The notes under the pieces: model-generated | Seen by the model: only the letters and a program-made list of their open reading frames with translations | The model's database searches: none | Told to the model about the DNA's origin: nothing | Assembly: GCA_036172245.1 (NCBI GenBank) | Contig: JAYWIR010000015.1 | Coordinates: 3,596,001 to 3,660,000 of the forward strand | Direction of reading: 5' to 3' | Length of the DNA: 64,000 nucleotides | Origin: Raillietiella orientalis | Taxonomy: Eukaryota | Part shown: positions 1 through 31,825 of the stretch, piece by piece | How positions within the stretch are numbered: the stretch's first letter is position 1 | How the letters are laid out: each line of letters opens with the position of its first letter | Position numbers and translations under genes: made by a program

Positions 1-982
<982 letters not shown>

Positions 983-5700: not shown

Positions 5701-8700
5701 CTCTGCAGTTCCTACAAAATCAACACTTTTAATATTATCAATAAGCAACATCGAGGATGAAACGCCAAATTACTTGGTAACGGCGTTTATACGGAAAATG
5801 GATGTTTAGAAGCGCCATCATCCCTTTATTACAGTTTCCGTTTCGAAGGTACGGCATAAAAAATTTACGATTTGTGAATGGCTTGACACGTAGTGGGCGC
5901 AGCCAGCCGAGAGCTGTGTGGGACTGAAAGCAAAGCACGGCGGGGGGAAGGGGGGGGGGGGGACCATAGAAACTTTCGGATCTGGAAGGATGATCCATCG
6001 AGCTCTTTTGAGGAAAAGTTTCGAAAGAACTCCTGCAGATGGGAAACAGCAGTATAGCAGTGTTGGGTGAATGTAAGTAAAGCCAGTTCAAGTTTTGTCA
6101 GTAATGCATCTAGTCCATTTTCCCAAGATTGCACAGGGCTGGGAATAAACCAATTAAGGATCTGTTAGGTCACGACGATATTTCAGAAGCTGCAAGTCGA
6201 AGAGAGGCATTCGAGATTACCGAAGTCATCAACCGGTCTCATTACCTGGATGTCTTCTGACTCAGGCTTACCCTGCTTCTGAAACAGCGTCATATCCCTA
6301 TACCGGAAATCCGCCAGCACGAAAGACTTTTTAAAGCAAAAAGCAAGTACTGCCTGTGAAGGATGCTCAAATGTTTTCTTGCAGGTTCGATCGATAAGGT
6401 CTAGGATGAGGACATCAGTGGAAAATCTTTACGTGATGTGGTAATTAACCAATTTAAAAAAAAGGAACTGAGTAGAAAGTGAGATCTCTAAATAGTAAGC
6501 GTAATTCAAAAATAAAACGAATCCGTTGTCTTTCAGGCATGCCAACAGACGGAATCCTACTTCAAATTGATGTGAACATATGTAAATTATTTACTTTCGC
6601 TGCACTGAGTGTTTATCGTGCACTTTTTGTTTTCGCACTTGATTTCCAATCTTTGTATTTTAAAAGCATGGGCTGTGCAGATAAAATCTCATCTAAACAT
6701 GTGAGAGCGCTGTCAGAACAAATACACATTCATATGTTTTTTGACAACAAGGTGCAAAAGACTGGACCGGGGAAAGCTAAAAATCATAAAACAATTAATG
6801 GCAGTTTTACTGAGAATCCACCGATCTCGGTAATCTTTCACTTTAGAAACCTCAAAACTGTGAACTTAGATTTGACGTCGGGTCTTACAAAGGAAATTGA
6901 ATTCGAAACACTAAAAGGAACAAGGCGAAGAAATGTATTTCGCCGTACGAAGTGTTGATGGTATTGTATATCTATAAAATTGTGATAATTGTTTCGAATT
7001 TGTGGCAGGCTTGAACAAGTACAGACCGCCACTCTGGTACTGAATGGGTTTTGTGCACTACGAACTAGAACAGGGGACTCTGATGACAAATTCATATTCC
7101 ATCGAAAGAAGGGATTACTATCGTCACCACTGTGATGGATCAGTGCCGTTGCGACGTTTCAACTTTTTTCTTGGAATTTGTCGGCCTTCATTTGGCAGGA
7201 GCAGGTCAATTTGAGTAGCGTGGGGAACCAAGAAACGGTTGGTTTAATCTTCTACTACGCTGTTACATTGTGTCTTTTTATTTTGAGTCACGAATTCTCA
7301 TTTCACATAAGGCGCTACAATTTTCACCAGTCTCACTACTCAATTAAAGGCTCGATGCAGTCGATTAAAACTAAACGCCGGACTATCTTATATCGATGTC
7401 CGATTGAACCCTGAATACCTGCTTATTAAATAGCGTCCTCATTCTCAAATGACCTGTTGTTATGTCCAGATTACAATTCATTACATTGTAATAACCTTCT
7501 GCGTATTCTAAGAAATCACTTTCTCCGCCGATCAGAAAGTTTGTGTTGCGGTTCAGCTTCTTCCAGACTATGGGAGAAGCCTTCCTGGTCCACTTTTCTG
7601 TCCCACACAAATGCTCCACAAATTCCTAAAAGTGAAACAAATGTTGCACATTTCAGTGAGTACGTGAGTAAATACTTTGCCAGGAAAACGACGAAGAGAG
7701 GGAGAGAGGAAAAAAAAAAAAAAAAAGGGAAAAATATGGACGTGAATTTTTCAATAGTTCAAACCGAGACCTCGGAATGTCATGTGAACACATGGATGTG
7801 TTCGCCTTCCATCTACTGTTACTTGTTTTTATCCACCTCGAGCAAGTAGTAGCCCTCTATCCTTCCACGGGTCCCCTTTGATTTTTTTCCACTCATAGCG
7901 TGAATTATATGAAATGAACACGAATCTTCGTGATGTTTAATAAAAACCATTGGAAGGTGAAATGAGTGCTTTCCACGCGTGGTGGTGGAAGATGAAGACC
8001 ACCAGCACCGCCGTATCTCCGATGGAAATCCCGAAAGGGCTTATCCAGAAGGAGATCGGCGTAGGAAACTGTGGAAGAGTACAGGCCTGGAACCACCGAC
8101 ATATCCTGGGAAGGATTGAGGACAACGCCTAGGCATAAACGACGCACAGTTCCCCAAGTGTAGTGAACCTCCGTGATAATCCCAGGAGACATAAGTGAAA
8201 TAATTGGTGAAAACGGATGCACGAATACCCAGAGTAAATGATCAAAGAAAATAAATTCACTCCACCCCTTGTGGGAATTGGGGAAACGAGGGCTTTCCAA
8301 ATTTTTCGTCATTATCCACAAGTTAATGAGGCATTCTTCGCCTTTGCAAAGGGCACCCGGTTCTAACTGATTGTGGGAACGACCGGGGATTCAGTGATGC
8401 TTTCATTAATTTTACTTTCATTTTTATTTTACTGATTTTAGAATGCAAAGAAATGATGGGAGAGTTAACAAAAACTTGGTTTACAGTTTTCGATATTTAT
8501 ACCATGCGGCAATTTTTGCTTACGCTTTTTTATTGATAGCAAATCTTTTTTTGTCGTATCACAAATGATAAAGATATTTCCAGCGGAAAGGTTATAGTTG
8601 TAGGCTATGAAATATAGGCTAGTAAATATGTATATTATTTAATCCATTGCATATTTAATTTTTTTTTATGTGGCACATGGCAAGAAACACAACAATCGCA

Positions 8701-11018
8701 ACAATATCTTTCTTTCGAAGGGATCTGAAAATATGCATCGGTTCATGAATACCACGTGCGTTCTGATTATTTACAAATAAGTGATTTGTTATTTAAATTG
8801 ATTTATCATTGCAATTTTGGTGATTGGAGCTTGGATCCTAATGGAAACGTTACTTTCCTGAAAAAGTCGAGGGATTTAGTTATGGTTTTTAATATTAGGA
8901 AGCGAAAAAAAAAAAAAAAAAATCTACGAACCGGACATGCAGCACAAGAACGGAAAGACTTCCGTCTGTATTCTAAAACCAAAGTATAGAATATAAAGAA
9001 AAGAAAACAATAGTAATAAATGTGTAAATCTTTCTTATAGACTGAATATGCACTGAATTGCACTTTCAGAGTCAACTAATTGCACTGCATTACAAAGGAA
9101 TCTTTTCGAATGTTATGGGGACAGGCGTAAGGTGAAATCATTAAGTTTTCTTGGAATCAAAAGCAAATCTGGAAGCGAAAACGCTTGTAAAGTTTCTTAC
9201 ATGGGTTTTCAACACAGAGCTTTTTTTGCCTCGGATGCGATCTTAGAAACGACTGCAAGTCGTTTCATATTCGACTCATTCACTGAAAATTTCATACATT
9301 CGGATCCCTTAAAAACCACACCTCGAACAAACGTCAGGTTGAGATGGAAAAGTAATTGCCAAGTGACTGACAACTCTTACCCAAAGCTTCGAAGCCTCGA
9401 TATCCAACCTTGAGAACATACTTTTGGGGCATCCGACATACTGATTTGACCGACATCGTGATGTTCAAAGCAATGCGGAAAGAGGTGTACAGTGCAAAAT
9501 ACCAACCCTTTCGTCTTCTGGATGTATTAGCGGAATGCACTTAGTTTCGGGGGCAAGTCGCACCCATATTTGCTTAAGCCTAAAAGAATTCTCGATGAAG
9601 GAAACCATTTACTAATTTTAAAGCACATTGCTCTACCACGAATCACTCACTTTGCCCGATTACTAATCATTAAGGGAAATGCTATGCCTTACGAAATTTA
9701 ACTTCGGTCAATATCAGATTTCATGAAGCAGTTTCAGGATTCCTCGAGTGCAACGATATTGAGTTTATTAGCACTTGACTGTAAATCAAGAGCTCAGTCG
9801 ACGAAGACCTCTATTTTAAACATGAATCAGGGAGGCTGGAAGAATGGCAAATGCTCCCATCGCCAGCGTCACTCTCTGCTTCATAACTTGAGAACTGATT
9901 TTTAATAAAAAAAAAAAAAAATCGCTGCATAAAAAGCCAAAATTATATGCTCTTATGTTGATTTGGTTAAGATGAAATCCTGGATGAGTTTGCTCAAACG
10001 AAGGATTAGAAGGATGAAGCCCCAAGTGACTGGTCCCACACACAAAGAAAAAAAAACAGAAAATGAGATTTGAAGCAAAAGAAAAAAAGAGCTTTAGGAT
10101 ATCTGGACATATATATTAAAGTAAAAGGAAAAGACTATTTAGTATAGTGACTTAAGAGTAACTATCCAAATTCTTGACTATGTATGTCGTTTGGCTGAAT
10201 TTCCCGTTTAATTTTCCCGTTAAGTGTTTGCTTAAACACTTAACGATCGGAATTATTATTTTTTTCTTTGTTCCTTTTTAATTCCGTTTATAGTAGTTTA
10301 GGGGGGGGGATATAATGTCGCTCAAGGATAGTGAATGGTTCTTTATAGATTCAATTCCTGAAGATATGATAAGGACACATTTGTCTAAAGTGAGGAATAT
10401 AACCAAATAACATTCGTTCTCATAAAGCTTCTCATAAGTACTTTTACATAAACGCGAATGAGGAGTTTCACAATTATGTGTTCACAACAGCACCAGTTTC
10501 TCACTTGGTTTGCTTCGGGCAACACTGCATGGGAACAGCTTAAATCCAAAATACTTATGCCTTTGCAATATCCAAGAATACCCGAGCGAGCATCTAATCT
10601 TTGGAAAATTTTGGCAATTTACGTAATGTAGTGTGTTTTGCGAGCAAATCCCTTTGAGGTATCTCATTCATGCTACTAATCCCTCATTTTGTGGGACTGC
10701 TCCGATGACGACCACTCCAGAACTTTCCATGACGACGAAAATTATTATTTGTCTCGACATTCGTAATTTAATACTGCTGCCAGTTTAAACGAGAGCGATT
10801 CCTATTCGTATTTCCTGTTCCGGAACGCAGGTTCAGTTTACATACCATCATGCGAAATAGTTTTTCTTTTCCTCTGTACTCACTTTCCATTCACTTTCTT
10901 CCTTTACGATTTTCATTACTCGAAAGTTGGGCAAGGAATTTGCTAAGGCATCAGCAATCAGTTCAGCTTTTGCAAACATCGGGCAGCTCGAACACCCCGC
11001 GATCACGATGCACACCAT
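2767..11018 (-). CDS. MDH1B: Malate dehydrogenase 1B-like protein; exons 11018-10884, 7625-7419, 5711-5567, (5498 or 5471)-4906, 4842-4710, 2912-2767
   Basis: The N-terminus MVCIVIAGCSSCPMFAKAELIADALANSLPNFRVMKI...W/EFVEHLC...ASPIVWKKL...LIGGESDFLEYAEGYY matches the MDH1B-specific glutaredoxin-like extension. The MDH fold follows: VCITAA...GNVFG, DLMDLA, KLNVNPWQIHDVYIWG, GAITGPPWY, AHACLEVMKSWW...ATVVSDG/TYGIPSGMVFSIPVYF...WEI. Intron phases are consistent; the exon 4 acceptor is uncertain. Confidence 0.9.
3400..3946 (-). CDS. Candidate unrecognised exons inside MDH1B intron 5 (nested gene or alternative 3' end); 3946-3882, 3795-3634, 3560-3511, 3456-3400
   Basis: Four segments join in frame through GT-AG introns of 86, 73 and 54 nt: SDIFQVAFDERFKQIVFGTLG/KEANGRMKEQTICFFETLPKTIGTNLGYFALMLSRAGAYIAYFVDTKKKGEMVV/VPKEISRKMTMDVITHF/VMFQTKMVTFLPVTGLQA*. 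No homology recognised. Confidence 0.3.
7976..8287 (+). mobile_element. 5'-truncated copy (3' end) of the LINE family at 16.8-22.1 kb, inside MDH1B intron 1
   Basis: Encodes WWKMKTTSTAVSPMEIPKGLIQKEIGVGNCGRVQAWNHRHIL, versus WWKMKTTRTTISPLGILKGLIQREIGIRNCGRVQAWNYRNIL at 21.75-21.87 kb. Both end with CCACCCCTTGTGGGA...GGGAAAC. Flanked by a 12-bp target-site duplication with one mismatch: GAGTGCTTTCCA (7964-7975) and GAGGGCTTTCCA (8288-8299). Confidence 0.9.
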
Positions 11019-12339
11019 CACTTCGAAATGCACCGAACGACAAGCACCAGCCACACCTGAAACGTGCAAAAAAGAACGGATGTCTGCAATTTTCAGAATT
11101 GCCACCAATCAGCTAGGGCTAACCGATTCACTATTCTCGCTTGCCATCTGAACAGGTGATTTTTTTTTTTTTAAACAAAAACAAATGTCCACACACATCT
11201 TTCAAAAAAAGTGACTCCGGAAATCAGTTTCCTTTCTTTATCTGTAGACTTTGCGACTTCGAATGTTTTGGAATGAGTGGAAATGGAAACTATTCCTCGA
11301 TAAAAATCTATAACTCGCAGGGTAGATGGCTAATTGGGACTACAAAGCAAATGCATAATGATCCTTCGAAAAATTGAATGAGCTTTCATTTTTAAACAGC
11401 TTCTACGTGCTGTTTGATAAGCACGTGCAAACTCAACAGCATGTCATGCAGATTCATGGTGAAATTGAATATGTGAATATGGCAACCTATTCAGGATTAT
11501 GGTTTCATACCAACTTAAAGCATATTTGGTCAGTACAAGATGTGGACTGAGGACTGCAACAAGGAACAACCTTTTGGTTTCAAACTCGAATTGCGTTCAC
11601 TCCACTTTCCATCAATCCAAAAAAGATCATGGTCTGATTAGAAAAAGAAGCAGCAGTAATAGAACAATTGAGACTCATTTTCTTTATCATTACATTGCAT
11701 AAGAATTCACATCTCCATGATATCCAATGACGATATTATTTCGATAATTTGCCAAACTGATCCATCGACTGTTTGTAATCCCTTTTTACCTCAACATTCC
11801 TTGAGGCAATTCCATTGAACAAATTATCATTTTGTGTGCCGATAAGCTCATGAATTTGAAACCATGCGTCATGTGAATTAAGGAAAGCTTTAGACTGATT
11901 GATTTCAACCAATCATTAATGAAGTCTTGTTGCACTTCTCCTTCCAACCTTTACAACCATTAGTTATCATCGATCTTTTTGCCAGAATTTTCTTGCTAGA
12001 TAGTTAATTCGTTATTATTTTCGAGGGAAGGGAGGGGAAGAAGTATATTACTGTCTTTTTGGGGAGAAAGTGAGGGGGAGAGGGGGAGGGGGGAGAAGAT
12101 GTGCAGTTCATCATCACCGCAATGATTTCATATTAACGAACTTCTTTCTGCAACAGCCGATCGATGGGTGACGGTTCCAATTCTTTTCCATGGGACACCG
12201 CGTTTGTTTCCCCATCTTTGTCCTCGGTAGCTCTATCGTTTCTCACTGGGCCACGTTTGTTTTGCCATTTGCTGGGAGTGAGAGATCGGGATGGGAAGTC
12301 GATGGAGGTGGGCAGGGAGCGGAGGAGGGGAGGAAGGGG

Positions 12340-14602: not shown

Positions 14603-16182
14603 TGATTCGAGAGGAAGCCGCCTGCCCTTCTTTCTTACCCGGCCCTTTCGTGAACTTGGAATGGACCCTTGCCTACAGGCTGAGACCTCTTGGATCCATA
14701 GTGCCTCAGGAAGGACATATGAACAATGACGATCTGGTGCCTTTGGATCCTGAAGGAGCAAAATGCCACCAAATGAACCGGGATACGAGTGGAAGCTGCG
14801 TTAGAACTCGAGCTTCGTCCTTCCGGTTCGCGTCTCCGGAGGATCCCGAAGGAAGTGTTTCCCCTTTACCGACTATGGTCACTTCCGCTAGCTGATCTCC
14901 CTGTTGTCACCCGTTATGAAGAGCCTCTGTAGACACTCTGAATGCCTGTGTAGCCATTTTTGAATGCTGGGCCGTAGTGATCCGGACAAAAGCCCTTTCC
15001 CTGAAAAGGGTCCATCTCGTGCAGTTTGAAGGGGTATCTAGGAAGACATCCGGATGTCGGTTCGTTCTGAACCGTGATCTCTCAAACGGGATGAGCCTGC
15101 TGTTCGTTTTTCGATACGAATATTCGCGTTGCAGAAGTCTCCTGACCCCATTCCACCAACCTAACGAAGAACTGAGCCCAAGGCGAAAAATATTCCTTCT
15201 TCAGCCTTTTCCTCCCGTCGAAGTGTCTGTTCTTCTTCATGTAGAGAGGCGCCGACCAGGGACTCCAGAAGCCCTTGATTTCTAGTCTGGACATGAATTT
15301 GATGCTGTTGAGCATTGGGCAGCTGCATGAGGAAGAACATCGGTAGGAGCTCGAGAACTTTCGGAAAGAGAGGCAGTCCCTTCTATCTCCTCTTCCTCTC
15401 TTGACCGACATGACTGAGCTCTCCCAGATCTGGAAAACCATGTCGGCATACACGTGAACTGCTCCTTGGCCTCCACGGAAATAAACAAAAAGGGCGATGG
15501 CTTCGGTCTCTGAAAACATTGTGGTTGTTGCGGCGTTGAAGAGAGGAATTTTTTATCCCCTTTGAGCAGGAGAAAAATCAAGCGGAGAAGAACATTCTTG
15601 AATTTCCTCTTCACCAATGAAAATGTTCTGCATTAAATCTTGGGTTCGTCTTCGGAGTCAAAGCATGTGAAGTATAGGAAGCTCCTGAATTTAAAGAATG
15701 GAGAATGGCCACCAACCTTTTCTTGGTGCCTTTTATTTAAGAAGAAAAAAAGAAAAGATTCGGTCCCGAGATTAACAGTGAGAGTCTGTTGTCGTCTTTG
15801 AAAACTTAATTTCCTACGCGTAGCTGACCTATCTGTAGATCAAAGACTGAAATCCTGACGCACCCATGCATGGATGCACAAGAGCCTCAGCATCCCATCG
15901 TTCCATTTCAAGATTTCCGACAAAATTTGATTTCGGTTCGAATTTTTTCCTTCCTGTCGAAAAAAAATTGATAATTGAAATCACATGGTGCCATCGTATG
16001 AGAGTATTTGGTGCTTGCCTCAGGCTGTGGTCACCAAACATCAAAGCTCAACAGTCGCTGACCCTCGGCGATATAAACGTGTTTCTTCGAGAGGATCAAA
16101 TGCAGTTTGATTCATCAGGATTTAGCAGACAGACGGGCTTTATGTCAACAATCGAGACGTCTTCAGCTAACAATGGGAATGC

Positions 16183-16239
16183 CTTCAGTTAACAATGGCG
16201 ATGCCCCTCCCCACGGGACATCGCCATTGTTAACTGAAG
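16183..16239. repeat. Perfect 21-bp inverted repeat (hairpin)
   Basis: CTTCAGTTAACAATGGCGATG (16183-16203), 15-nt spacer, CATCGCCATTGTTAACTGAAG (16219-16239). A degenerate direct copy of the left arm lies at 16161-16182. Confidence 0.95.
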
Positions 16240-16630
16240 TAATTTTGGAACAAAAATGACTTTTGAGATGAAGACGCTCATTTCACATTTTTGCACTCAA
16301 AGAAGAGAGATTGATTCCGCGTTCGAAAGCACCACCGCGGTAGCGACGCGCTTCGTGCCCGTCACTGATTCGGTGCGAAGGCAAAAAGATAGATGGCAGC
16401 GGATGCAAGCTGGACCCTTTTCAAATGGAATCAAAAAAGCACTCGAAAGCATAAAAGATTGCACTCCATGAAGACACGAATACTCACCTTCTTTTACAAG
16501 AGCAATGCACATTGAACGTAAAGGATCGGAACTTTATTTTTCCTTCAGTAAGGACTGTCTCGTAGCTTTGCCACCACTACGCAGTGATAGTGAGTTAGCA
16601 GATGGGGTGTGCGAGGGAGAGCTAATCTCT

Positions 16631-16748
16631 ACCTGCTCGGGCTCCCGCTCGAAGCGCGCATTTCTTTCGCCTTTTACTAAAGAAATCCGTGGGCGGGAGC
16701 GTCGAAAAGAGCGTTTTCCGAATTTTTGTGAGTGCCCTTTTAGGGCAA
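16631..16748 (+). ncRNA. U5: U5 spliceosomal snRNA gene (complete, ~118 nt)
   Basis: Invariant loop I GCCTTTTAC (16669-16677) closed by TTTCTTT/AAAGAAA. Internal-loop CCG. Stem GCTCCCGCTC/GGGCGGGAGC. Basal GCTC/GAGC. Sm site AATTTTTG (16721-16728). 3' hairpin TGCCCT-TTT-AGGGCA. Confidence 0.95.
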
Positions 16749-16751
16749 GCC

Positions 16752-16768
16752 GTAATCTAAAAGATAGA
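16752..16768 (+). promoter_or_regulatory. snRNA 3'-box-like processing signal
   Basis: GTAATCTAAAAGATAGA just downstream of U5 contains the AAARNNAGA core. The same motif (AATCCAAAGGTAGA) follows the second U5 copy at 22175-22188. Confidence 0.6.
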
Positions 16769-16909
16769 AGCAATGTTGTGCAGTGCAGCTGAGGACTCTC
16801 GCCAGCACCAGCAGCAGAGCCGGAAAGGCTGCGGAAGAAGACCTGCGACCCTCCCGAGCGGCGATGGCAGTGCCCGCCGCGAGGATGCAGCAGCAGGCAG
16901 CAGCGGGTG

Positions 16910-18415
16910 ATGGCGGAAAGGCCGGAGCTACCCCGCCCGCAGCCTATGGAGGTAGCGTCAGACGAATGTTCTGGAGCGACGGTCACGACGACCCCGGCAA
17001 CAGGCAGGCTCGCAGGCCTACCCGTTGCTAGGGTCGCCACGGCTGCAAGCGTGGAGCGGCCATCTTTCTCGTATGCGGCTGTGGCGGCGGGGACGGCCAT
17101 CACCCGACCAGCCCACAATTTTGGAAAGCCCGTGGTCGGCGAAATTCAGAACATTGACGAGCCCATCATTAAGATGGGCTCGAATGTTAAGCCGATCACA
17201 TTCAAAACTGGATTAATTAGAATCCACAATATCAGGGAGCTGTACTTGGCCTTATACCGGCCAACTTTGACACGGTGTAGGCCATAATTCCAAGCATGAG
17301 CCAACAATTGAGGGATGCTCTGATCGAGAAGGGCATAAACATCCAAGGCAGGATGGTCCGAGGCATCGGAGATATGCCGTATACCACGGTTTTTCTCGGT
17401 GATGTGTGCGGGACCAACAGTAAGCAGCGTGGGCACTTCTTGCGAAATATGGAGAAGTCCTAGAGGTGGAGTTCCGGAACTACTCCGGAAACTTGTTTTC
17501 GGGCGAAGTGGTCGCCAAAATTAAGTTGTTCGAGGAGGTGCAGATTCCGGGGGTTGCCCATATCGATGGGAACTCCCAAGAAGTATCCGTGAAGTATCGC
17601 CACAGCCGGTGTTCTGCACCGGCTGCAAGCACTTCGGTCATCGGGTGAGCACGTGCCCAAGGTCTCGATGCTTCCTCTGCGGGAAGCAAGGACACCAGGT
17701 ACGCACCTGTAGCATGCCCGAGGTGTGTGCCTTCTGTAAGAAGCCGGGGCACGCGAGGTGGTGTTGCCCCGAGTATGCCAACTGGCGTACGATGCGTGGA
17801 CTCTCCCCCGTGCGGGAGAAGGTTCTGGCGGAGGTGGCGAAGCCTCAAAAGCAGGCGGAGAAGCAGAAGAAGGCGAAGGAGACCGCTCCGGTTTCGGCGG
17901 ACGGCTTCGCTGAAGTGAGGAAAGGCGGCAAGAGGAGGTTGCTCGTTAAGGAGCAAGAGCCCTCCCAGAAGGCCGCAGAGAAGGAAATTGCAGAGGATGG
18001 CGATAAAATGGAGGTGAACGAGCCCACCCCGGAGGCTCAGGAGGTCCCGCAGCTCACCGAGGAGATGAGGGAGCTTGTTGAGGAGATCTGCCAAGAACCG
18101 ACAGAAGTGCAGCAGGAGCAAATCCTGACCCGCATCTGCGAGGTCCAGCAAAATATAAATCAGTTGGTGGAGGCAGGCGAGCGGGAAAAGCTGGAGAACA
18201 AGCTTTTCGAGGTGGAGGCGACCTACTGCGTGAAGGCCAACCCGGATACACCCACACGCAAGGTGGTAGCCAAGGCCGGAAGCTCGATGGAAGGAGAAGA
18301 CACAACCGACCAAACCGGCACTGAGAGCGATGCCGGTAGTGAAATGCCCGCTTCTTCCTCGGGAAGGCTACAATGGTCTCCCCGACAGAAGAAGCTCAGA
18401 AAGGGCAAAAAATGA
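16910..18415 (+). pseudogene. LINE ORF1 (gag-like), frameshifted
   Basis: ATG at 16910, SYAAVA motif, knuckles CTGCKHFGHRVSTC, CFLCGKQGHQVRTC and CAFCKKPGHARWCC, then a charged/coiled tail. The reading frame is broken between about 17.28 and 17.61 kb. Confidence 0.85.
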
Positions 18416-18424
18416 ACCCCCTTG

Positions 18425-21400
18425 ATGGCCTCGTCCTTGTCCACCGCTAGGAGACTAAACATCGCCTCCTGGAATGTTATTGGACTTCAAGAGCAGGCAA
18501 GAAGGAAAAGAATAGTGCGGAACATCGCGCACTGTGACATCGTGTGCCTACAAGAAACCCACGTGATGGAGCAACAAATCAGCCATGAACTGGACAGGCG
18601 ATTAAACGCCCAGCTGTTCACCAGCGAGGGACAGTCGTACACCATGGAGGTGATGATCTCAATCAAAAACGAGCTCGCCGCCACCATTCTGGAAACCTTC
18701 TGTCCCGTACCTGGAAGAGTCATCACCTTGACGGTTGTCCTGCTCCGCAAATGTTCACCTGTTTCTGGTGAATGTTTATGGACCCCACCAAGACAAGCAT
18801 CGGTGCGCGGAGACGCTCCACGAAGCCCTCCGACAAAAGGTCGCACCGAAGGATATCGTCATCATCGTTGGGGATTTCAACATCCCGGATGAAGTCGTCT
18901 GCTCCCGGGACGTCAGAGGCAGGACAGCGTATCGGCGGCTGTCCGACGAGTTTGGGCTTCGATGGCTAACTGCCATCCACAAGCCGATCAATCACGTCCT
19001 CTGCAGCTCCGACATAGGGAACCGAGTCTTTGGGTTTCGCGGCATGCTCTACACAGTGTCCGACCACCCATTGCTGAGGTTTTCCCTGAGGACTGAAAAC
19101 CCTCGACAAAAGAAGGCACCCAGGGCGGTGCTCATCAGCATGCCCTCCTGGTTTGAAACGCTACCCTATCACCAAGAGCTCGTGGAGGCGATTCTGCAGT
19201 CGACCACCATCAGCAGAGTCGCCGACTGGGATAGCATGAAACATCGTGTCCACCTCTTCTGCAACATGCAGTTCGGGGACAAGAGATTGAGGCAGGAAGC
19301 GTACCGGGAGCTGAACATCCAAGATCGCTCCCTCTCGAAATACTGGCAACAGTACGAGAGTCGGTACGTCTTCCAAAGCATCAAGGGAGAAGTGGGAATG
19401 CTGGAGAAGAGGAATCTGGCAACAGATATCTTCTGTATCCAGTACGATGGTCGTGCCAGGCACGCGTCGGAAGACATCACTGAAGCCTTCCAGAGGCATT
19501 ACGTGGAACACTTCCGACGCAGACATCTGTGCAAATTATACGAAAATAGCTTTCTGAAACATCTGGAGAAACGAGTCGATGGAAAGAATCGAAAGATACT
19601 GGGAGAGGAAATCTCCGAAGAAGTGAAAGCTGCGTTCAAGGACCTTCTCAAGGATGTGGCAGCGGGCCCTGATAATGTTCCCATCTCACTCTATCAACGG
19701 TACCTGCATGCCTACCAGCGTTTGTTCCACCAGCTGACGCTACGCATCAGGGAAGAAGGACGACTACCGCAATCCTTCTATGAGAGTAGGATGAGATTGT
19801 TACCAAAAGGAGGCGACCTCACGCAGGTCACCCAATGGAGGCCAATCTCGATCCTCAACTCCGATGCCAAGTGGTTGGCGAAGATCTGGGCCAACCGCCT
19901 CGGCAAGGTCATGCCGAGGCCGATCTCTCTGGTCCAAACATGTGTGGTGCCTGGACGCCACATGTCGGACAATGTCAAGTGTCATCAAGCTACCATTGGA
20001 CTCAGCCGATATATCGGCGAGAGCTTGGTACTAGGCTTCACTGACATGGATAAGGCTTTCGATACGGTGGACCATGAGATGCTGCTGGAGATTCTAGGAA
20101 GACTGGGCCTCCCAGAATACTTCCGCAACTTCGTGAAGATGATATTCGAACAACATTTCCACATCAAGATAAACGGGGAAACGAAGCAGCTATTCGGATG
20201 ATGGAACGCGGAGTCCGTCAGGGTGATGCTCTAAGTCCGATGCTGTTCGTCATCTATATGGAGGCCCTCTCGTCGTACATCGAGAGAACTGGGTACCTCC
20301 AAGGAATCAAAGTGGACAGTTAAAGGCTCACCTACTGGCCTACGCAGACGACCTTCTCTTCTTGAAAGGGGAGAGAGACCAGCGAGGCTTTCTGCATGTG
20401 GTGGAGCTTATGAGTGAAGGATTGGGCTGGAAGATCAACGCCCAGAAGGGCCAGCTTTTTCCCGTCGGAATCCTGGACCTCTCTACACTCACGAGGGAAG
20501 GATTCCGTACGGTGGATCGAATTAATTACCTGGGTATCCACATAGGAGATGCTTCAGCATCCCAATTACTGCGGAAAGAAATCCTGGGGAGAACAGCAGA
20601 GGAAGGAGCGAAGTACACCCGCTCGGACTTCAATATGAAGAGCAGGGCCAATCTTTGGAACGGAGTTCTCCTTCCAAAGATGCTCTTTGGAGCGGCCTTC
20701 TCTACAATATCCCAGAACACCAAGCGCGATGTGGAAAAGCTTCAGCGGAGAACCCTCTGGGGAAAATATCGACCGAGAGTACGCCTTAAGCCACTTTGTC
20801 GTCCTAAGGAAGAAGGAGGATCCGGGATGAAGTTGCTTGCATACGCCGTGGACGTCATGGACGTGCGACAAATCCTGGAAATGTCTTCCAACTGGGACGA
20901 CTGGCCGTACGCAGCGCACAGGGCGTACTCGCTGTTGTTGAACAACTCGAGAGGCCTGATGATTGCGCTGGTTGGCAGAGTTGGTGAATGGTCCACCATC
21001 GACCCGACGTGGCGAAGGAAACAGAAACTCGTCAAGAAACAACACTTGAAGATCATCCCGAAGAGCAAAGAACTCTGGCAGGAGGAATCCATCCTGATTA
21101 TCTCGTGGATGCTCCCCGTGCAGGATGACACGAGGAGCTGGATAAACCAGTGGTCCGGAGTGACTTTGCGTAATACGGAATCATGGGTACGACGACGACA
21201 CCTGCATCATTCTCGGGTGCTGAGTTATGTCGAAAGGATTTCTGGCAGCTTCACACTCAGGACCCGCGAAGTGTGGAAAAATCATCGCGACTTCGCATGG
21301 TCCAGAGTAACGAAGAGGAACATTCGCCAGTTATTAGAAGAGGAACAAGACACCAGCGCTCTCCGAGATGCCGCCGACCGCTACGCTAGTAGTGGATTCA

Positions 21401-21919
21401 ATCCACTGGCGATTGGGACGGTGCTCTGGAGGAGTGATTGACCACCGGACACTCAGGATAACCTCCTGATGTTTTTCCATGGAGGCATCATGAGTGGTTG
21501 CAGGATGAAGCTCTTCACGGGAATAAGAGAGGAAGAAATCTGCAGAGCGTATGGTGGAATAAATACAAGACGTCATTTCCTGACTTGCCCCACACTGCAA
21601 GCCGAGTGGACTACTCTGAAAAGGGCCATCGGGCTGTCCAACGATAGAGGTTTTGGCAGGGATGTTCCAGGGAACTGGAACGGTTCCCCGCTATAACCTC
21701 ATGGTAAGAGTGACCATCGACCTTTTCATCACCGCCATTATTGTGCGGTGGTGGAAGATGAAGACCACGAGGACCACCATATCTCCCCTGGGGATCCTGA
21801 AAGGGCTCATCCAGAGGGAGATTGGCATCAGAAACTGCGGACGAGTGCAGGCCTGGAACTACCGAAACATCCTGAGAAGGATTGGAGGAGGAACCCAGGC
21901 CCAAACGACACCCAGGTGA
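18425..21919 (+). pseudogene. LINE ORF2 (APE endonuclease - reverse transcriptase), frameshifted
   Basis: APE motifs ASWNVIGL, DIVCLQETH, VNVYGP, IVGDFN, SDHPLL. RT motifs AAGPDNVP, WRPISILNSDAK, DMDKAFDTVDH, RGVRQGDALSPMLF (~20207-20250), YADD (20341-20352). L1/Tx1-like LCRPKEEGGSG. C-terminal CRAYGGINTRRHFLTCP. Several frameshifts and stops. Confidence 0.92.
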
Positions 21920-22076
21920 TTAAATGCAGCGAACTTTCCAGAGACCCAAAGAAGCAGACTTCGAGTGAACCCCAGCGATAGGAAGTGCAATTTTTGTTCA
22001 ATTTGTATGAATGAGATTGTAGTGTGAATGAAAGAGAAAATAAACTTACCCCACCCCTTGTGGGACTTTGGGAAAC

Positions 22077-22169
22077 CGTTTATTTCTTTCGCCTTTTACT
22101 AAAGAAATCCGTGTGCGGGAGCGTCTAAAAGAGCATTCATGCAATTTTTGTTTTGCCCCGATGGGGCGA
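22077..22169 (+). pseudogene. U5: 5'-truncated U5 snRNA copy immediately 3' of the LINE
   Basis: ATTTCTTTCGCCTTTTACTAAAGAAATCCGTG is identical to the upstream U5 over 32 bp. Sm site AATTTTTG at 22143-22150. A different but intact 3' hairpin GCCCC-GAT-GGGGC, then a 3' box. The first ~24 nt are missing. Confidence 0.92.
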
Positions 22170-22799
22170 TAAGAAATCCAAAGGTAGAAAAACTCAATAC
22201 TGCTTTGCTGAAGATGTGGGGTAAGCGGTGTTGCTTTCCCACTCTTTGAGGACCGATTACGCTGGTGGTAGGAGCCGGTAACGGCTGGAAGAGAACCCCG
22301 GTGACCCCAAGGGCCAGTAAGGCACGCGCTATGCTGTGCACAATCGTGGCCCACGTCCCTGCCAACAGGAACTTTGGATGCTTACCTCAGAGTTTCTTGA
22401 CAAGCATCCATGTAAAGAGGAATGCAAGACATGGGGATTGGGTGATCCGAATCACATCGGTTCGCATGCATGCCCGGACTTGGTTCGAAAAGGGCAACCC
22501 GTCGCGGGAGTGGCGGAAATGAAAACAGAAATTCTCAAAAGACCATATTAGGGGGATGACTTTACTCCTAAGCAAGATTCTCTCCTCGGGTCACACTTGG
22601 TCCTTGTAATAGGGGCTGTAAGCACCAGAAGGCAAGTGGACGAAAAGGAAGAAAGGTGAATTAGTGCCCGAGTGAGCAGTTGATCAGCACAGAGTCCATG
22701 GATTGAAAACAAAAAATGGTGTCGCGTCCTGGAGTCACCGTTTGGTAATTTCCGGTACCTTCGTGTAAATATTCACTCCGGTTGTTCCTATTTAGTTAG

Positions 22800-23160
22800 T
22801 TTTACCGGGACTCAACCTCATAGACCAGTGAAGAATCGCGCTCATTGAGAACGTCAACTGTAGTCCAATGTTTTCGGTCACTCCTGTGTCGAGGCTTAGG
22901 CGATTGAGCTAAGAGTATCACACCGCTGGCTGGTTGGGTGTCGAGCACTGTTTACCATCTGCGACATGAATCCGATTCCATGGTTCGCTACGTTCCAAGG
23001 TACTCATGAAACCGCTGGCGGTGATGCTATCTGTATATCATTTATTGGGTTGTACGATGAAGTGATGAGACAAAAGTTATGGATCGCCTGGTTAGCAAGG
23101 GGCGTCGCGGCTGCATCGGTTGGGCTTATACTCAACCTCTTTGGTAGACTTCGTCAGTGT
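22800..23160 (-). mobile_element. Possible decayed LTR-retrotransposon pol/integrase C-terminal remnant
   Basis: A stop-riddled frame ends RSDRKHWTTVDVLNERDSSLVYEVE, loosely like the W-x-G-x-V...SY-x-V end of gypsy integrases. Confidence 0.2.
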
Positions 23161-23164
23161 TAGG

Positions 23165-23213
23165 GGGATCCAGCCATTCGCTGTTCATATGGAACAGCGA
23201 ATGGCTGGATCCC
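23165..23213. repeat. Perfect 22-bp inverted repeat (palindromic hairpin)
   Basis: GGGATCCAGCCATTCGCTGTTC (23165-23186), ATATG, GAACAGCGAATGGCTGGATCCC (23192-23213). Confidence 0.95.
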
Positions 23214-27860: not shown

Positions 27861-30800
27861 ACGTCTCTGTTTTGCTTTTAGTGAATTGCTACCAATTTCC
27901 CAAAGTCACTTGTTTCTTCCCGGAAGCTCACTTGGTCGCTGGACACCGTATTTCTGTTGGCCTCGTGATTCAAACCATCTTTCTCAGTTCCTACGAAACT
28001 TATTTCATCGGAACAGATTGGTTTGAAAACTTTTGGTATTGAAAGTCAGCTTCAGCCAAAGGTCAGTCAAGCAATAGTTCGTGCAGCTTGAGAAACTTCT
28101 TATGACATGGAACAAGTGCTTAGGAATCAAGGAGAAAAGCGACGAAAGCAAGTTTTTCAGATTCTGACTTTGAAAAAGTCAAAGAAGAGAACTTCTCTAA
28201 TCGTTTGCTTATTTATTACGATGGGAAAACGGCATCCGAATAAATGCAAAAAAAAAAAATTGCAAATGCCAAGAGCTTTTTTCGATGTCTGGATATCAAA
28301 ACTTCCTGTGATGCACAAAGGATGCTCAATTGCTTGGCATGAAATCCAAAAGGGCATCAAAATTAATAAGTCTGTTACTTGAAATAACGAAAAATTCATT
28401 GCTTTGGAAATAATACGTTCCCAAATTATTAAACAGTAAGCGCAGTGAATCGCGCAGTTGCGAAGTGTTACAGGGATTCAATCAATAAAGTAAGTAATCT
28501 AGGATGATCTAGAATTAGGTATCAGGCTATCCCGTAGAGAGGTTGCGACCAAAGTACATCATCCAGCGTCAGTATCAAACTGCCCAAGCTCACTTATGTT
28601 AAGAGGACGGAGGGTACCCAGCATCCGATCTGTAAACATTCGGATGCGTAAAAATGGATCGACGCTGTCCAACGCAATCCAGCAGTTTACACCTAGAAAA
28701 ACGTACACACACAAAACACTGATTTTCTCAGAGGGCGAAAGCTCGAAGGCGATCGTGGGTTACCCTCCATTTGCATTTTCTCTTTATGGATGTCCACAGA
28801 AAAGGGATGCTGTCTCTTCCGCGTGGCATCAGAGAGAAATCGCGAGCGAATTCTTCTTAATGAATTCCCATCGGAAAACACGAATTTCGACACGGACAAA
28901 TGAATGGTGCAATCAGGTGTCATTAACGAAAGAAAGTAGGAATCACTGAAAGGTACATCTGAAGAGACACGTCTCATAAATAGCTCAGAGTGACTCTTAG
29001 GAGTGAGCTAAAGGTTCCAAAGGTATCCTCTCTCTTATTAATTCAGAATTGGTACTCTCAGAGGCATGCATTCAAATCCCATTTTCCAACTTGAAGTCTC
29101 TCAAAACTCAAGACAGAAATTTAATCCCATAAAAAGAAAGTGTTCCTCCAGCACACGGAAATGCGAGATCGCAAAGGGGAAAATGAATTTACTTCATTTC
29201 AATCGCATTTTAAAAAATAAAATGCAATAGAAAAAAAATCAAATCAAATCAAACCATATCTTTGTGTATGAAGAATATAAACACAAGATGATAAAATCGA
29301 AAGAAAAAAAAAAAAAAAAAGGGTGGGGGTGGGGGGGACCAAAAATCGATACCTACCTGCTCCGTTTAGAAAAGAAAAAAAGAAAACACCTTCCAATTTT
29401 CTGAGAAACCTTCGACAGAGACATAAGGAATTCACGTTCGGGAAGCTCCACTGCCTTCCTGCATTTATCTTGGAAAACGATTTCTTGCGAAATCCAGATA
29501 CACTTTCCTAGAAGGCCACTGATTCTTCTCAGCCTGAACGGACAGTTCAAGAACGACTACGGAATGGGATCCGTGAGGATTCCTTTCTGCGCCTCAACTC
29601 TTCTACAAACAGTGGAAAAGAGCTGTAAAACATGGAGGAGGAAAACGCTGCCCTCAACAGAGACTACCAGAGGGAGCATTTTATAAACTGCGGAGCTTCA
29701 CTTGGGAGCACTTCATCATTCTGTCCCTTTGGCAGCGGCTCGCCGTCGTTCCTCTTCAATAATTCCGTGGACGAATTGCGCCGGCACAGAGAGTTCAATG
29801 CAGGACACGTGGCTGGTTTGTCTTGCCCGGGACGATGGCTCGTGGGGTCGCCCTTCGTGGTGAATTGGCTCTTGGCCCCACGACCATGCTTTTCGCTTAC
29901 TGTTCCGGAGCGTGAAGACACAGCACACAGGAACCACTTGTCACTCTTGGTCATCCACGACCGGTTGTCTGCGAAAGACGGTTACAGCCACGCACGAAGA
30001 ACGTTACTCTGGCAAACGAAGAGCAGCGGTGTGAAATGCAATGGTTGGTTTCTTTTGTTCCTTTCCCAAGTGGTGTTTCATAGACCAATTTTTTTCTTTT
30101 CCCCTTCTTTCAGATACATTTTTCTCCATCGATGCATCTGAGGTTGTGACCTGACGAAATTTGGATGCTGTTTGTCGAGGTTTGCAAAACACATTAAAGG
30201 AAAAAAGGTTTCACTGGCTCTCGATAAGGTGCAGCTGACAGCAAATAAAACGAAAATCTGAATAAATGGGAAATATTCCACCGTACGAGTGCAGCTCCTC
30301 GATGTACGACTCATCCGAAAAGTATGAGATGTATACCAACAGCCAGGCATAATAATCAAAGATGCGTTTGGAGAGAGAGAAAAAAAGTTCTGCGAATTAA
30401 CAAAATGAAAACGATCGTTTTACTTGCTGCTTCTAAATCTTTTCATGCTGCTTTCGTCCCTTTGCTGCCCTTTCATTTCAAAGACTGTTCTTTGTACGCA
30501 ACTGTACGTCACCTAATTAAATGACGAAGAATAAAAAAACAAACAAACAAACACTTTACCCGAAAACCGTTTTATTTCCGTATCGAATTGCGGACTTGAA
30601 TTGCGGAATTGCAGGTCAAGTCGTTATGAGCACCACAATTTGGGAGAATGAAAACTCCTGTTACTGATTTCAATATGAATACAACGTTTTTTCCTCTCTA
30701 TAGCTGAAACAACATTGCCTTACGAACATTTCCAGACTTTTCCTAATTTTCATGTTTGCTTACTAGCGGAACCTCAGCAACACAATTACATTTCTCCTTA

Positions 30801-31230
30801 TATAAATCTATATGGAGAGGAAGCTAATGAAATGCAGTAACGTGGTTTTATTAAATGGAAATAAATCATGAGTATTTCATGATCGTAAAATCACCTTATG
30901 TAATATACACGCCACATAATGTTCACCATACGTATTTGCTCAAAAACAAATAATTTAATTGAATAAATAGGCGATAATGCACCAATTAACAAATGAACAA
31001 AAATCCTTGATGTTTGACTCATCACTTATATGATACCAATTAATTCATAAAAACCTCAAAAAGTAAAGGAATAAAATCAAAAATTACATAAGGAAATAAC
31101 TTTTCAATTAATGTACTTTAATGTCATTAGTTTGCCAATCATTAAAAATTCCTGAAGCTTCTAGAGTTCTTGCTATGAAACAATTTTACACACAATGGTC
31201 CATATTTCCAATGATAAATAAGTAATCTCA

Positions 31231-31824: not shown

Positions 31825-31825
31825 A

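What the first reader, a model, noticed from the sequence alone, without database searches (positions are those of the whole stretch)
16631..22188. U5 snRNA-associated L1/Tx1 LINE with an apparently gene-restoring architecture
Seen: a complete U5 gene with 3' box, then directly the LINE, then directly U5 from about nt 25 onward with its own Sm site, hairpin and 3' box. A plain insertion into U5 would leave only the first ~24 nt upstream, yet the upstream U5 is whole. The copies are not a simple TSD: they match for 32 bp, then differ, and each has a different but perfectly paired 3' hairpin (TGCCCT/AGGGCA vs GCCCC/GGGGC), so both look derived from functional paralogs. The upstream copy includes the 3' box, which mature snRNA lacks, arguing against a U6-L1-style template-switch chimera. 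Known: Tx1-clade LINEs target multicopy RNA genes (Keno at U2, Mutsu at 5S, Dewa at tRNA arrays) and Utopia targets U2. Inference: this family targets U5 and carries the downstream part of U5 plus 3' box at its 5' end, rebuilding the host gene and being transcribed by read-through from the U5 promoter. I cannot say from memory whether this has been described.
Basis: partly seen in the sequence, partly recalled or inferred. Interest (0 to 1): 0.85.

Follow-up and report, generated by a model that had tools for sequence, protein, structure and literature searches.

The report
LINE retrotransposon lodged in U5 gene
A slightly decayed L1/Tx1-type jumping gene sits inside a U5 spliceosomal RNA gene of an insect, with a whole U5 gene just upstream, a layout already reported for U2 genes whose cause is still open.

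Summary
Rfam finds an intact U5 gene at 16633-16750 (82 bits) and a U5 lacking its first ~22-27 nt at 22077-22169. Each is followed at the same distance by a 3'-box-like motif. Between them lies a same-sense, ~5.3 kb L1/Tx1-type LINE with a CCHC ORF1, an AP endonuclease and a reverse transcriptase, broken by about 6-7 frameshifts and one in-frame stop.

The two U5 segments are not a target-site duplication. They are 32/32 identical across the loop but only 56/82 identical after it, while the LINE is at most about 4% decayed. A template-switch chimera is unlikely because genomic 3' flank is present.

I could not test the family-level claim. No genome, reads or related copies were obtainable. 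The only other copy in the window (7976-8287) is 5'-truncated, has a 12-bp duplication, and lies in at best a decayed U5-like site at a different position.

Prior art reduces novelty. U5 is listed as a Tx1 target in Kojima 2015, and "intact snRNA gene upstream, truncated gene downstream" was described for Utopia/U2, where it was attributed to deletion or recombination.

Read-through carriage of U5 (0.38) and neighbouring gene plus deletion (0.30) remain near-equal explanations.

The parts
16633..16750 (+). Intact U5 snRNA gene (U5_up): complete stem I, invariant loop 1, Sm-like site and terminal hairpin
   Evidence: Rfam RF00020 at 82.1 bits against a gathering score of 40, model positions 1-117. 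Fold.
16760..16768 (+). 3'-box-like motif AAAGATAGA, 10 nt after the U5_up hairpin
   Evidence: Motif scan. It is homologous to the flank of the downstream copy. The consensus is recalled from memory.
16769..22076 (+). L1/Tx1-type non-LTR retrotransposon, essentially full length and same sense as U5. The 5' limit is uncertain (16769 to about 16865). The 3' terminus is ...GGGAAAC with no poly(A) tail
   Evidence: Pfam APE and RT. tblastn frame map against relatives. The 3' terminus is shared with the second copy.
16865..18415 (+). ORF1 region: RRM-like stretch plus three CCHC knuckles (17615-17656, 17669-17710, 17726-17767). The reading frame changes about three times
   Evidence: Three-frame translation and motif scan. 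Pfam zf-CCHC scores only 14.8 bits, below its 20.8 cutoff.
18425..19040 (+). AP-type endonuclease domain of ORF2, with a frame change near 18740-18800
   Evidence: Pfam PF03372, E=2.6e-5. Frame map.
19437..20829 (+). Reverse transcriptase domain in three frames, with breaks near 20180-20210 and 20314-20340. YADD at 20341-20352
   Evidence: Pfam RVT_1, E=1.9e-11 and 2.7e-3 for the distal part. tblastn. Best solved structure is human LINE-1 ORF2p, E=9.7e-23.
21439..21693 (+). In-frame stop (21439-21441) followed by the ORF2 C-terminal Cys/His stretch (...HFLTCP...)
   Evidence: Translation. Similarity to the zinc-finger region of relatives is not significant.
22039..22076 (+). LINE 3' end: AATAAA (22039-22044), conserved hairpin CCCAC...GTGGG (22050-22064), terminus GGGAAAC (22070-22076)
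   Evidence: The hairpin and terminus are conserved in the second copy.
22077..22169 (+). 5'-truncated U5 (U5_down), from about nt 22-27 onward: loop 1, 3' strand of stem I, Sm-like site and its own perfect hairpin. It has no 5' strand of stem I and no promoter
   Evidence: Rfam 55.5 bits. Alignments.
22180..22188 (+). 3'-box-like motif AAAGGTAGA, 11 nt after the U5_down hairpin
7976..8287 (+). Second, 5'-truncated copy of the LINE 3' end, 81-82% identical to 21747-22076
   Evidence: blastn of the element against the window. Sequence.
7964..7975 (+). Upstream copy of the 12-bp target-site duplication of the second copy (GAGTGCTTTCCA). The downstream copy, GAGGGCTTTCCA, is at 8288-8299
7916..8318 (+). 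Flanks of the second copy (7916-7975 and 8300-8318). Once the insertion is removed they align colinearly with U5 nt 19-96, so this may be a decayed U5 pseudogene (weak evidence)
   Evidence: Local alignment score 40. It was reached by 4/1000 dinucleotide shuffles and by 1/60 control segments. One non-U5 tile of 2126 reached the same score. Rfam finds no U5 in either flank at E<=10.

Best explanation
Shown: an L1/Tx1-type LINE inserted by target-primed reverse transcription into a U5 snRNA gene, in the gene's own orientation, at about nt 20-27. This left the promoter-less 3' three-quarters of that gene (U5_down) at the element's 3' end. The intact U5 gene at the 5' end is not a duplicate of the cut gene. 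Its 3' two-thirds come from a different U5 paralog and carry genomic 3' flank (a 3'-box-like motif).

Inferred, and my preferred mechanism: that U5 3' part and its 3' box arrived with the element's RNA. The donor copy lay just downstream of a U5 gene and was transcribed by read-through from the U5 promoter, which is a 5' transduction. At the new U5 target, the end of the cDNA (complementary to the start of U5) annealed to the target's own promoter-proximal ~22-27 nt. The junction therefore rebuilt a whole U5 gene upstream of the element.

The rebuilt gene would keep the host's U5 dosage, and its promoter is the element's only evident source of transcription. This copy is now inactive as it stands (frameshifts and a stop). 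Whether the arrangement is heritable across the family is not shown.
For: 1. Intact U5 plus truncated U5 in the same sense, with the LINE between them.
2. The two U5 segments are 32/32 identical across the invariant loop and 56/82 after it. The LINE has one in-frame stop over about 4,700 coding sites, which bounds its neutral decay at about 2.7-4.3%. That predicts at most 4-7 differences between TSD copies, so 21 or more has P=8e-9 to 1e-5. They are therefore not a TSD of this event.
3. Both 3' flanks carry the same box-like motif at the same distance, so the upstream U5 is genomic or read-through in origin, not a mature snRNA.
4. No remnant of a second U5 promoter or of U5 nt 1-27 lies between U5_up and the LINE body. 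The best local score was 22, and 97/100 shuffles reached it.
5. The leader before the first ORF1-frame ATG is only about 100-140 nt. GC rises from 0.45 to 0.65-0.78 right after the 3' box. No separate 5' UTR or promoter is evident.
6. The hypothetical pre-insertion target (first 27 nt of U5_up joined to U5_down) folds as a proper U5, at -44.2 against -41.6 kcal/mol for U5_up.
7. The only clear TSD of this lineage in the window is 12 bp, which argues against a ~120-bp staggered cut.
8. The window shows no U5 array: only these two Rfam-level U5s in 64 kb.
9. Co-transcription with the target and homology-guided 5' joining are established ideas for target-specific LINEs, as cited in Kojima 2015, section 20.
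Against: - Only one full-length copy could be examined. The donor, the element's true 5' end and other copies are all unseen.
- An snRNA-type 3' box should terminate or cleave most U5-promoter transcripts, so read-through RNA would be rare (established knowledge, not tested here).
- The model still needs a founding DNA-level event that first placed a LINE just after a U5 gene, and this copy could be that founder.
- The published account of the same layout in Utopia/U2 invokes deletion, recombination or gene conversion, not carriage.
- The second copy is not at the same U5 position, and its U5-likeness is weak.
- The U5_up promoter could not be verified: the insect PSEA consensus is only in figures, and there is no similarity to the other U5-like site's upstream region.
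Confidence: 0.38

Rival explanations
1. Neighbouring gene plus deletion, a one-off event. Two U5 paralogs lay head to tail. The LINE inserted into the downstream one at about nt 22. The spacer, promoter and first ~22 nt of that gene were lost, either at integration (top-strand break upstream of the bottom-strand nick) or by later deletion or recombination. The intact U5 is then simply the upstream neighbour.
For: - This explanation was given for Phytophthora Utopia, where U2 downstream of the element starts at nt 39 and intact U2 genes, not nt 1-38 fragments, lie upstream (PMC4640811, section 6).
- It naturally explains why the two U5 pieces are different paralogs.
- A third, decayed U5-like site 8.7 kb upstream hints at a local U5 cluster.
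- The LINE's 5' end is undefined, so some of 16769-16865 could be spacer.
Against: - No array is visible: 2 Rfam U5 matches in 64 kb.
- It requires the deletion to end within about 10-100 nt of the upstream gene's 3' box.
- No spacer or promoter remnant is detectable.
- GC composition turns LINE-like right after the 3' box.
Confidence: 0.3
2. Very long target-site duplication (about 120-140 bp, R9-like) that inherently leaves a whole U5 upstream. The upstream functional copy was later overwritten by gene conversion from another U5 paralog.
For: - An 'exceptionally long' TSD is on record for the rDNA-specific R9. I saw the title only, in a reference list; the length is recalled.
- Homology between the two copies ends soon after the 3' box on both sides.
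- Concerted evolution of snRNA genes is well known.
Against: - The copies are 56/82 identical after the loop, against at most about 4% LINE decay, so a conversion covering the whole gene and flank must be added.
- Such divergent paralogs imply that conversion is rare.
- The only clean TSD of this lineage here is 12 bp.
Confidence: 0.08
3. The partial U5 belongs to the element rather than the target. A LINE RNA that read through into the cut U5 of its donor locus (a 3' transduction ending near that gene's 3' box) integrated into the 3' flank of an intact U5 gene, guided by flank homology. U5_up was never cut.
For: - Both 3'-box regions are homologous, with weak similarity continuing about 27 nt further (GCTGAGGA against GCTGAAGA at the same offset).
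- Use of read-through 3' sequence for positioning is known for R1-type elements (recalled).
Against: - The related copy at 7976-8287 ends at ...GGGAAAC directly followed by its TSD, so U5 is not part of the element's 3' end.
- The U5_down junction at about nt 22 resembles the near-5' target positions of Tx1-clade elements; Mutsu inserts about 20 nt into 5S.
Confidence: 0.07
4. Template switch. At the end of reverse transcription the RT jumped from the LINE RNA to a U5 transcript, as in U6/L1 chimeras and the snRNA heads of SINEU. The U5 cDNA end then annealed to the cut U5 target.
For: - Tx1-mobilised SINEU families show recurrent 5' addition of U1/U2 sequences (PMC4494074, abstract and sections 17-19).
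- This would also yield a paralog-mismatched, structurally perfect U5.
Against: - U5_up continues through a 3'-box-like motif and flank homologous to another U5 locus. Mature and normally processed precursor snRNAs lack this, so only an unprocessed read-through U5 RNA would fit.
Confidence: 0.07
5. Assembly artefact: a false join through the 32-bp stretch shared by U5 copies.
For: A 32-bp perfect repeat is present. No reads were available to check the assembly.
Against: A join inside the repeat would still require a real genomic piece reading 'U5 nt 60-end, 3' box, LINE 5' region', so the key adjacency survives.
Confidence: 0.05

Closest known systems
Tx1-clade target-specific LINEs: Keno (U2 snRNA), Mutsu (5S rRNA), and an unnamed Tx1 family whose target is given as U5 snRNA in Kojima 2015, Fig. 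3 legend
   Same: APE plus RT LINE with a nucleic-acid-binding ORF1, inserted in the sense orientation a short way into a small multicopy RNA gene. Mutsu inserts about 20 nt from the 5S 5' end; here insertion is about 22-27 nt into U5. U5 is already listed as a Tx1 target.
   Different: - Clade membership was not tested. No Repbase sequences were available, and the best protein relatives are at most 33-35% identical.
- The host is an insect, whereas the papers I read describe Tx1 targets in vertebrates, lancelet and cnidarians.
- The text I could read does not say whether those elements have an intact target gene at their 5' side. Figures and supplements were not visible.
Utopia (RLE-type LINEs in U2 snRNA genes), Phytophthora copies
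   Same: The same architecture: the snRNA gene downstream of the element is 5'-truncated at the target position, and intact snRNA genes, not the expected 5' fragment, lie upstream (PMC4640811, section 6). The same puzzle applies: how such elements persist in a low-copy essential gene family (section 11).
   Different: Utopia has a restriction-like endonuclease and a single ORF, targets U2 rather than U5, and its Phytophthora U2 genes lie in arrays. The authors attribute the layout to deletion, recombination or gene conversion, not to carriage by the element.
R9, rotifer 28S-specific element with an exceptionally long TSD
   Same: A long duplication of the target would also leave a complete target copy upstream of the element.
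   Different: The two U5 copies here are far too different to be a fresh duplication, and the related copy has a 12-bp TSD. R9 is known to me only from a title in a reference list and from recall.
snRNA/L1 template-switch chimeras (U6-L1 type) and SINEU heads
   Same: A whole snRNA sequence is joined to the 5' side of LINE-derived sequence. Tx1-type machinery is implicated for SINEU.
   Different: Here the U5 carries genomic 3' flank with a 3'-box-like motif, the LINE is essentially full length rather than a 3' fragment, and the downstream flank is the rest of a U5 gene.
5'-transducing retroelements (for example the SVA subfamily carrying MAST2 sequence) and R2 co-transcription with 28S
   Same: Transcription from an upstream host promoter, with upstream host sequence carried into new copies. 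The target's promoter replaces an internal one (as discussed in PMC4494074, section 20).
   Different: In the model proposed here the carried piece is the missing part of the very gene that is targeted, so insertion would rebuild that gene. I did not see this described in what I read.

Membership tests
U5 spliceosomal RNA (Rfam RF00020) | Score at or above the curated gathering threshold over the full model, with stem I, loop 1, Sm site and 3' hairpin | tested here: met
   U5_up scores 82.1 bits against 40, model positions 1-117. U5_down scores 55.5 bits, but its first ~25 aligned positions are LINE sequence with non-canonical pairs, so it is a 5'-truncated gene.
L1/Tx1-type (APE-bearing) non-LTR retrotransposon | AP-type endonuclease N-terminal to a reverse transcriptase in ORF2 | tested here: met
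   Pfam PF03372 (2.6e-5) and PF00078 (1.9e-11) in that order. Best solved structure is human LINE-1 ORF2p, E=9.7e-23, against R2 at 1.6e-12.
L1/Tx1-type (APE-bearing) non-LTR retrotransposon | ORF1 with zinc knuckles, and a C-terminal Cys/His motif in ORF2 | tested here: inconclusive
   Three exact C-x2-C-x4-H-x4-C motifs are present, but Pfam zf-CCHC scores 14.8 bits against a 20.8 cutoff. The C-terminal motif is visible but not significant.
Tx1 clade specifically (as opposed to L1 proper) | RT-domain phylogeny placing it with Repbase Tx1 families | not testable with these tools
   No labelled Tx1 sequences were obtainable. Relatives are at most 33-35% identical and unnamed or generically named.
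Target-specific LINE (U5-specific) | Most copies have 3' junctions at one position of the target gene | tested here: inconclusive
   There are 2 copies in the window. One lies at U5 nt ~22-27. The other lies at a weakly U5-like site corresponding to nt ~76, with no Rfam support. The genome-wide set is unavailable.
Simple or long target-site duplication | Flanking repeats identical at insertion, diverging no faster than the element | tested here: not met
   88/114 identical overall and 56/82 outside the loop, against at most 4-7 differences expected (P<=1e-5).
snRNA-LINE template-switch chimera (U6/L1 type) | snRNA part ends at or before the mature 3' end, and the whole is flanked by a TSD | tested here: not met
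   U5_up runs on through a 3'-box-like motif homologous to the other locus's flank. No flanking TSD was found.
'Intact snRNA gene upstream, truncated gene downstream' layout (Utopia in Phytophthora) | Upstream flank is a whole target gene rather than its 5' fragment | tested here: met
   for this locus. Described for Utopia in PMC4640811, section 6. Membership in the Utopia lineage itself is not met: this element has APE rather than RLE, and two ORFs.
   No other full-length copy could be fetched. The only compatible check passed: the inferred pre-insertion target folds as a U5.

The most novel reading that the evidence does not exclude
A U5-specific LINE lineage that carries U5 nt ~23-end plus the 3' box as a heritable 5' module. 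Every full-length insertion into a U5 gene would then rebuild a working U5 gene from the target's promoter and first ~22 nt, and would place the element under that promoter by read-through. This would be a gene-restoring eukaryotic retrotransposon, analogous in logic to bacterial integrative elements that restore the tRNA gene they enter (recalled). It would also offer a new explanation for the intact U2 genes found upstream of Utopia, and for how LINEs persist in low-copy essential snRNA gene families.
Probability: 0.25. Interest if true: 0.8.

Novelty: new member of a known kind. Interest (0 to 1): 0.45.

Why it matters
snRNA genes are few and essential, so a LINE that inserts into them should be costly to the host. 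Kojima and Jurka called the persistence of such elements hard to understand. This locus is a clean, fairly young example of the odd layout, in an APE-type element, at U5, and in an insect. It allows two explanations to be excluded: a simple TSD and a mature-snRNA chimera. If the remaining 'carried U5' model holds genome-wide, it would show a retrotransposon that repairs the gene it hits and borrows its promoter. If it does not hold, the locus is an ordinary insertion next to a neighbouring U5 gene.

Tried and rejected
- Whole genome: none is held.
- Sequencing runs: none was listed for 16000-23000 and no RNA holder was listed, so reads were never laid.
- LINE 3'-end pattern searches found 0 matches in metagenome, viral and prokaryote-genome contigs.
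- The RT protein found no relative in viral contigs. 13 stretches matched a peptide pattern, but none was confirmed.
- The 32-nt U5 loop stretch in metagenomes gave 1 locus (L001). It is an unrelated organism's U5 (66.6 bits) in a 2.4-kb contig with no LINE.
- Protein searches found no close family member. 282 hits at E<=1e-5 among 6840 candidates (best 33% identity), and 90 hits at E<=1e-8 among 7627 candidates (at most 35%). Cluster look-up gave no clade names.
- The insect PSEA consensus is only in figures, so the U5_up promoter was not verified.
- No promoter similarity was found between U5_up and the U5-like site at 7.9 kb.
- Rfam found no U5 in either flank of the second copy.
- Flank similarity beyond the 3' box (16817-16851 against 22272-22307) is not significant: E=0.61 and 10/500 shuffles.
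- Weak tblastx hits suggesting a third LINE at 12.4-14.7 kb were pooled-statistics noise. They shared E=0.007 with scattered hits elsewhere, and no LINE-like ORFs were seen there.
- A search for short TSDs around the whole U5-LINE-U5 unit found none.


Full report
**What is there**

A whole-window Rfam scan at gathering thresholds returns exactly two matches, both U5.
- The first is 16633-16750 at 82.1 bits, covering the full model.
- The second is 22057-22169 at 55.5 bits. In it the model's first ~25 positions are aligned to non-U5 sequence with many non-canonical pairs.

Direct comparison shows that real U5-to-U5 homology runs 16660-16772 against 22082-22193, with 88/114 columns identical. 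The first 32 columns (loop 1 and its stem) are 32/32 identical. The other 82 columns are 56/82 identical.

Both copies keep an Sm-like AAUUUUUG and a perfectly paired terminal hairpin of different sequence. Both are followed 10-11 nt later by AAAGATAGA or AAAGGTAGA. These match the snRNA 3'-box consensus as I recall it; that consensus comes from no call.

The downstream copy lacks the 5' strand of stem I and any promoter.

**The element**

Between the two U5s, in the same orientation, lies about 5.3 kb encoding the following.
- An ORF1 with an RRM-like stretch and three exact CCHC knuckles at 17615-17767. Pfam zf-CCHC is below its cutoff.
- An AP-type endonuclease (PF03372, 2.6e-5).
- A reverse transcriptase (PF00078, 1.9e-11; YADD at 20341-20352).
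- A C-terminal Cys/His stretch whose similarity to relatives is not significant.

The best solved relative is human LINE-1 ORF2p (E=9.7e-23), against R2 at 1.6e-12. Mapping with 12 distant relatives shows the RT in three frames. Overall I count about 6-7 frame changes and one in-frame stop at 21439-21441, so the copy is inactive as it stands but only lightly decayed.

It ends ...AATAAA...CCCAC-loop-GTGGG...GGGAAAC at 22076, without a poly(A) tail.

Its 5' end cannot be fixed. After the upstream 3' box (16768) come about 100-140 GC-rich nucleotides before the first ATGs at 16865 and 16910. GC rises from 0.45 to 0.65-0.78 at about 16800.

The 3' junction is ambiguous over U5 nt ~19-27, because the element's terminal GAAAC resembles U5 GAAGC.

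A neighbouring gene for a pH-sensitive or glutamate-gated chloride channel is about 81% identical to insect proteins over 40% of the query, so the host is an insect.

**Not a target-site duplication**

4.3% of possible substitutions in the element's ~4,700 coding sites would create stops. One observed stop bounds its neutral decay at about 2.7%, or 4.3% if three stops are allowed. Two TSD copies should then differ at no more than about 4-7 of the ~80 variable columns. I observe 26 differing columns out of 82 (23 mismatches and 3 gap columns). The probability of 21 or more differences is 8e-9 to 1e-5.

The two U5 segments therefore come from different U5 paralogs, unless a later gene conversion rewrote one of them. 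The only unambiguous TSD of this lineage in the window is 12 bp (see 'The second copy').

**Not a mature-snRNA chimera, and no hidden second promoter**

The upstream U5 continues into flank that is homologous to the other locus's flank, including the box-like motif. Processed snRNA lacks this flank.

No remnant of U5 nt 1-27 or of the U5_up promoter region is detectable anywhere between U5_up and the end of the LINE. The best local score was 22, and 97/100 shuffles reached it.

Similarity of the flanks beyond the 3' box is not significant (E=0.61). No short TSD brackets the whole unit.

**A compatibility test of the 'carried U5' model**

If U5_up is a chimera of the target's first ~27 nt and a carried 3' part, then the target gene before insertion was those 27 nt plus U5_down. 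That in-silico gene folds into the U5 shape at -44.2 kcal/mol, against -41.6 for U5_up. The model passes, but paralogs sharing stem I would pass as well, so the test does not discriminate.

**The second copy**

blastn of the element against the window finds one more piece. 7981-8149 and 8231-8287 are 81-82% identical to 21747-21915 and 22021-22076. It is 5'-truncated, ends with the same hairpin and GGGAAAC, and is flanked by GAGTGCTTTCCA and GAGGGCTTTCCA.

With the insertion removed in a script, the site aligns colinearly with U5 nt 19-96, score 40.
- 4/1000 dinucleotide shuffles reached that score.
- 1/60 control segments reached it.
- In a scan of 2126 tiles, one non-U5 tile reached 40 and several reached 37-39.
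- Rfam finds no U5 in either flank at E<=10.
- The upstream region shows no similarity to the U5_up promoter region.

I read this as a possible old U5 pseudogene hit at a different position (nt ~76). It is suggestive of a U5 association in this lineage, but it argues against a single fixed site unless the two copies belong to subfamilies with different sites, as reported for Mutsu in 5S.

**What could not be done**

- The 3'-end pattern has no match in metagenome, viral or prokaryote-genome contigs.
- The RT has no relative in viral contigs.
- The U5 32-mer fetched only an unrelated U5.
- The best protein relatives are at most 33-35% identical and carry no clade label.

'Tx1' against 'L1' also remains unassigned.

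**Literature**

- Kojima 2015 (PMC4494074). I read the abstract, passages, and sections 17-21. The Fig. 3 legend lists 'U5, U5 snRNA' among the targets of Tx1 families. The same paper documents recurrent 5' addition of U1/U2 sequence by Tx1-type machinery and discusses transcription from flanking promoters.
- Kojima and Jurka 2015 (PMC4640811). I read passages and sections 6, 7 and 11. [quoted passage not shown] They attribute this to deletion at integration, or to recombination or gene conversion in arrays. They also state that only Keno, Utopia, Dada-U1 and Dada-U6 had been reported for snRNA genes, and that persistence in about 10 U2 genes is hard to explain.
- A zebrafish preprint (10.1101/858944, passages) notes retrotransposons interrupting U1, U5 and U6 repeats.
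- Locati 2017 (PMC5340908, passages) places Mutsu about 20 nt into 5S, with subfamily-specific sites.
- Across five full-text searches, I saw no paper among those listed and opened that describes a U5-targeting LINE in detail, or a LINE that carries part of its snRNA target and rebuilds it. Kojima and Fujiwara 2004 and Repbase Reports are not in the library.

**How it most likely works**

Shown:
- insertion into U5 at about nt 20-27, in sense orientation;
- an intact, paralog-mismatched U5 with genomic 3' flank immediately upstream;
- no intervening promoter or 5' fragment;
- a very short leader.

Inferred, with confidences:
- 0.38: the U5 3' part and 3' box came in with a read-through RNA from a donor lying behind a U5 gene. 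Homology between the cDNA end and the target's first ~22-27 nt rebuilt a whole gene.
- 0.30: the published alternative, an adjacent U5 neighbour with loss of spacer, promoter and 5' fragment. The carriage model itself needs one such founding event, and this copy could be the founder.
- 0.08: long TSD plus gene conversion.
- 0.07: a 3'-transduced partial U5 landing in a U5 3' flank.
- 0.07: template switch to an unprocessed U5 transcript.
- 0.05: misassembly.

Against carriage, 3'-box processing should make read-through rare. In its favour, the window shows no U5 array, and a rebuilt gene would remove the cost of hitting a low-copy essential gene.

**Verdict**

U5 as a LINE target and the 'intact gene upstream' layout both have precedents, so I file this as a new member of a known kind, with a moderately probable and interesting novel reading.

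Noticed in passing
window 7976-8287 (TSDs 7964-7975 and 8288-8299): A second, 5'-truncated copy of the same LINE lineage's 3' end (81-82% identical) with a 12-bp target-site duplication. Its pre-insertion site is weakly U5-like (about nt 19-96), suggesting an old U5 pseudogene hit at a different position.
   Followed up: yes
window 44969-47908, minus strand: Exons of a Cys-loop chloride channel (Pfam Neur_chan_LBD and Neur_chan_memb). It is about 81% identical over 40% of the query to insect pH-sensitive or glutamate-gated chloride channels, which identifies the host as an insect.
   Followed up: partly
window 22050-22064 and 8262-8275: A short hairpin (CCAC...GTGG core) just before the GGGAAAC terminus is conserved between the two LINE copies despite about 18% divergence. 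It may be a 3' recognition structure for the reverse transcriptase.
   Followed up: partly
window 1-12000 and 30000-36000 against 36000-64000: Strong compositional contrast: 32-42% GC in the first two stretches against 48-62% GC in the last. The LINE (52-54% GC) stands out from its immediate surroundings.
   Followed up: no
window 7700-7735: A purine-rich stretch with an A run of about 17 (gggagagagg, then the A run, then ggg aaaaa) about 240 bp upstream of the second LINE fragment. It might be the tail of another retroposed sequence.
   Followed up: no
L001 960-1070, minus strand: A 2.4-kb metagenome contig carries a U5 gene (66.6 bits) sharing the same 32-nt loop and stem as this window's U5, but with GC-rich, unrelated flanks and no LINE.
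   Followed up: yes
window 23165-23213: Weak mir-5892-like match (31.3 bits against a gathering score of 82, E=0.013), about 1 kb downstream of the truncated U5. Probably chance.
   Followed up: no
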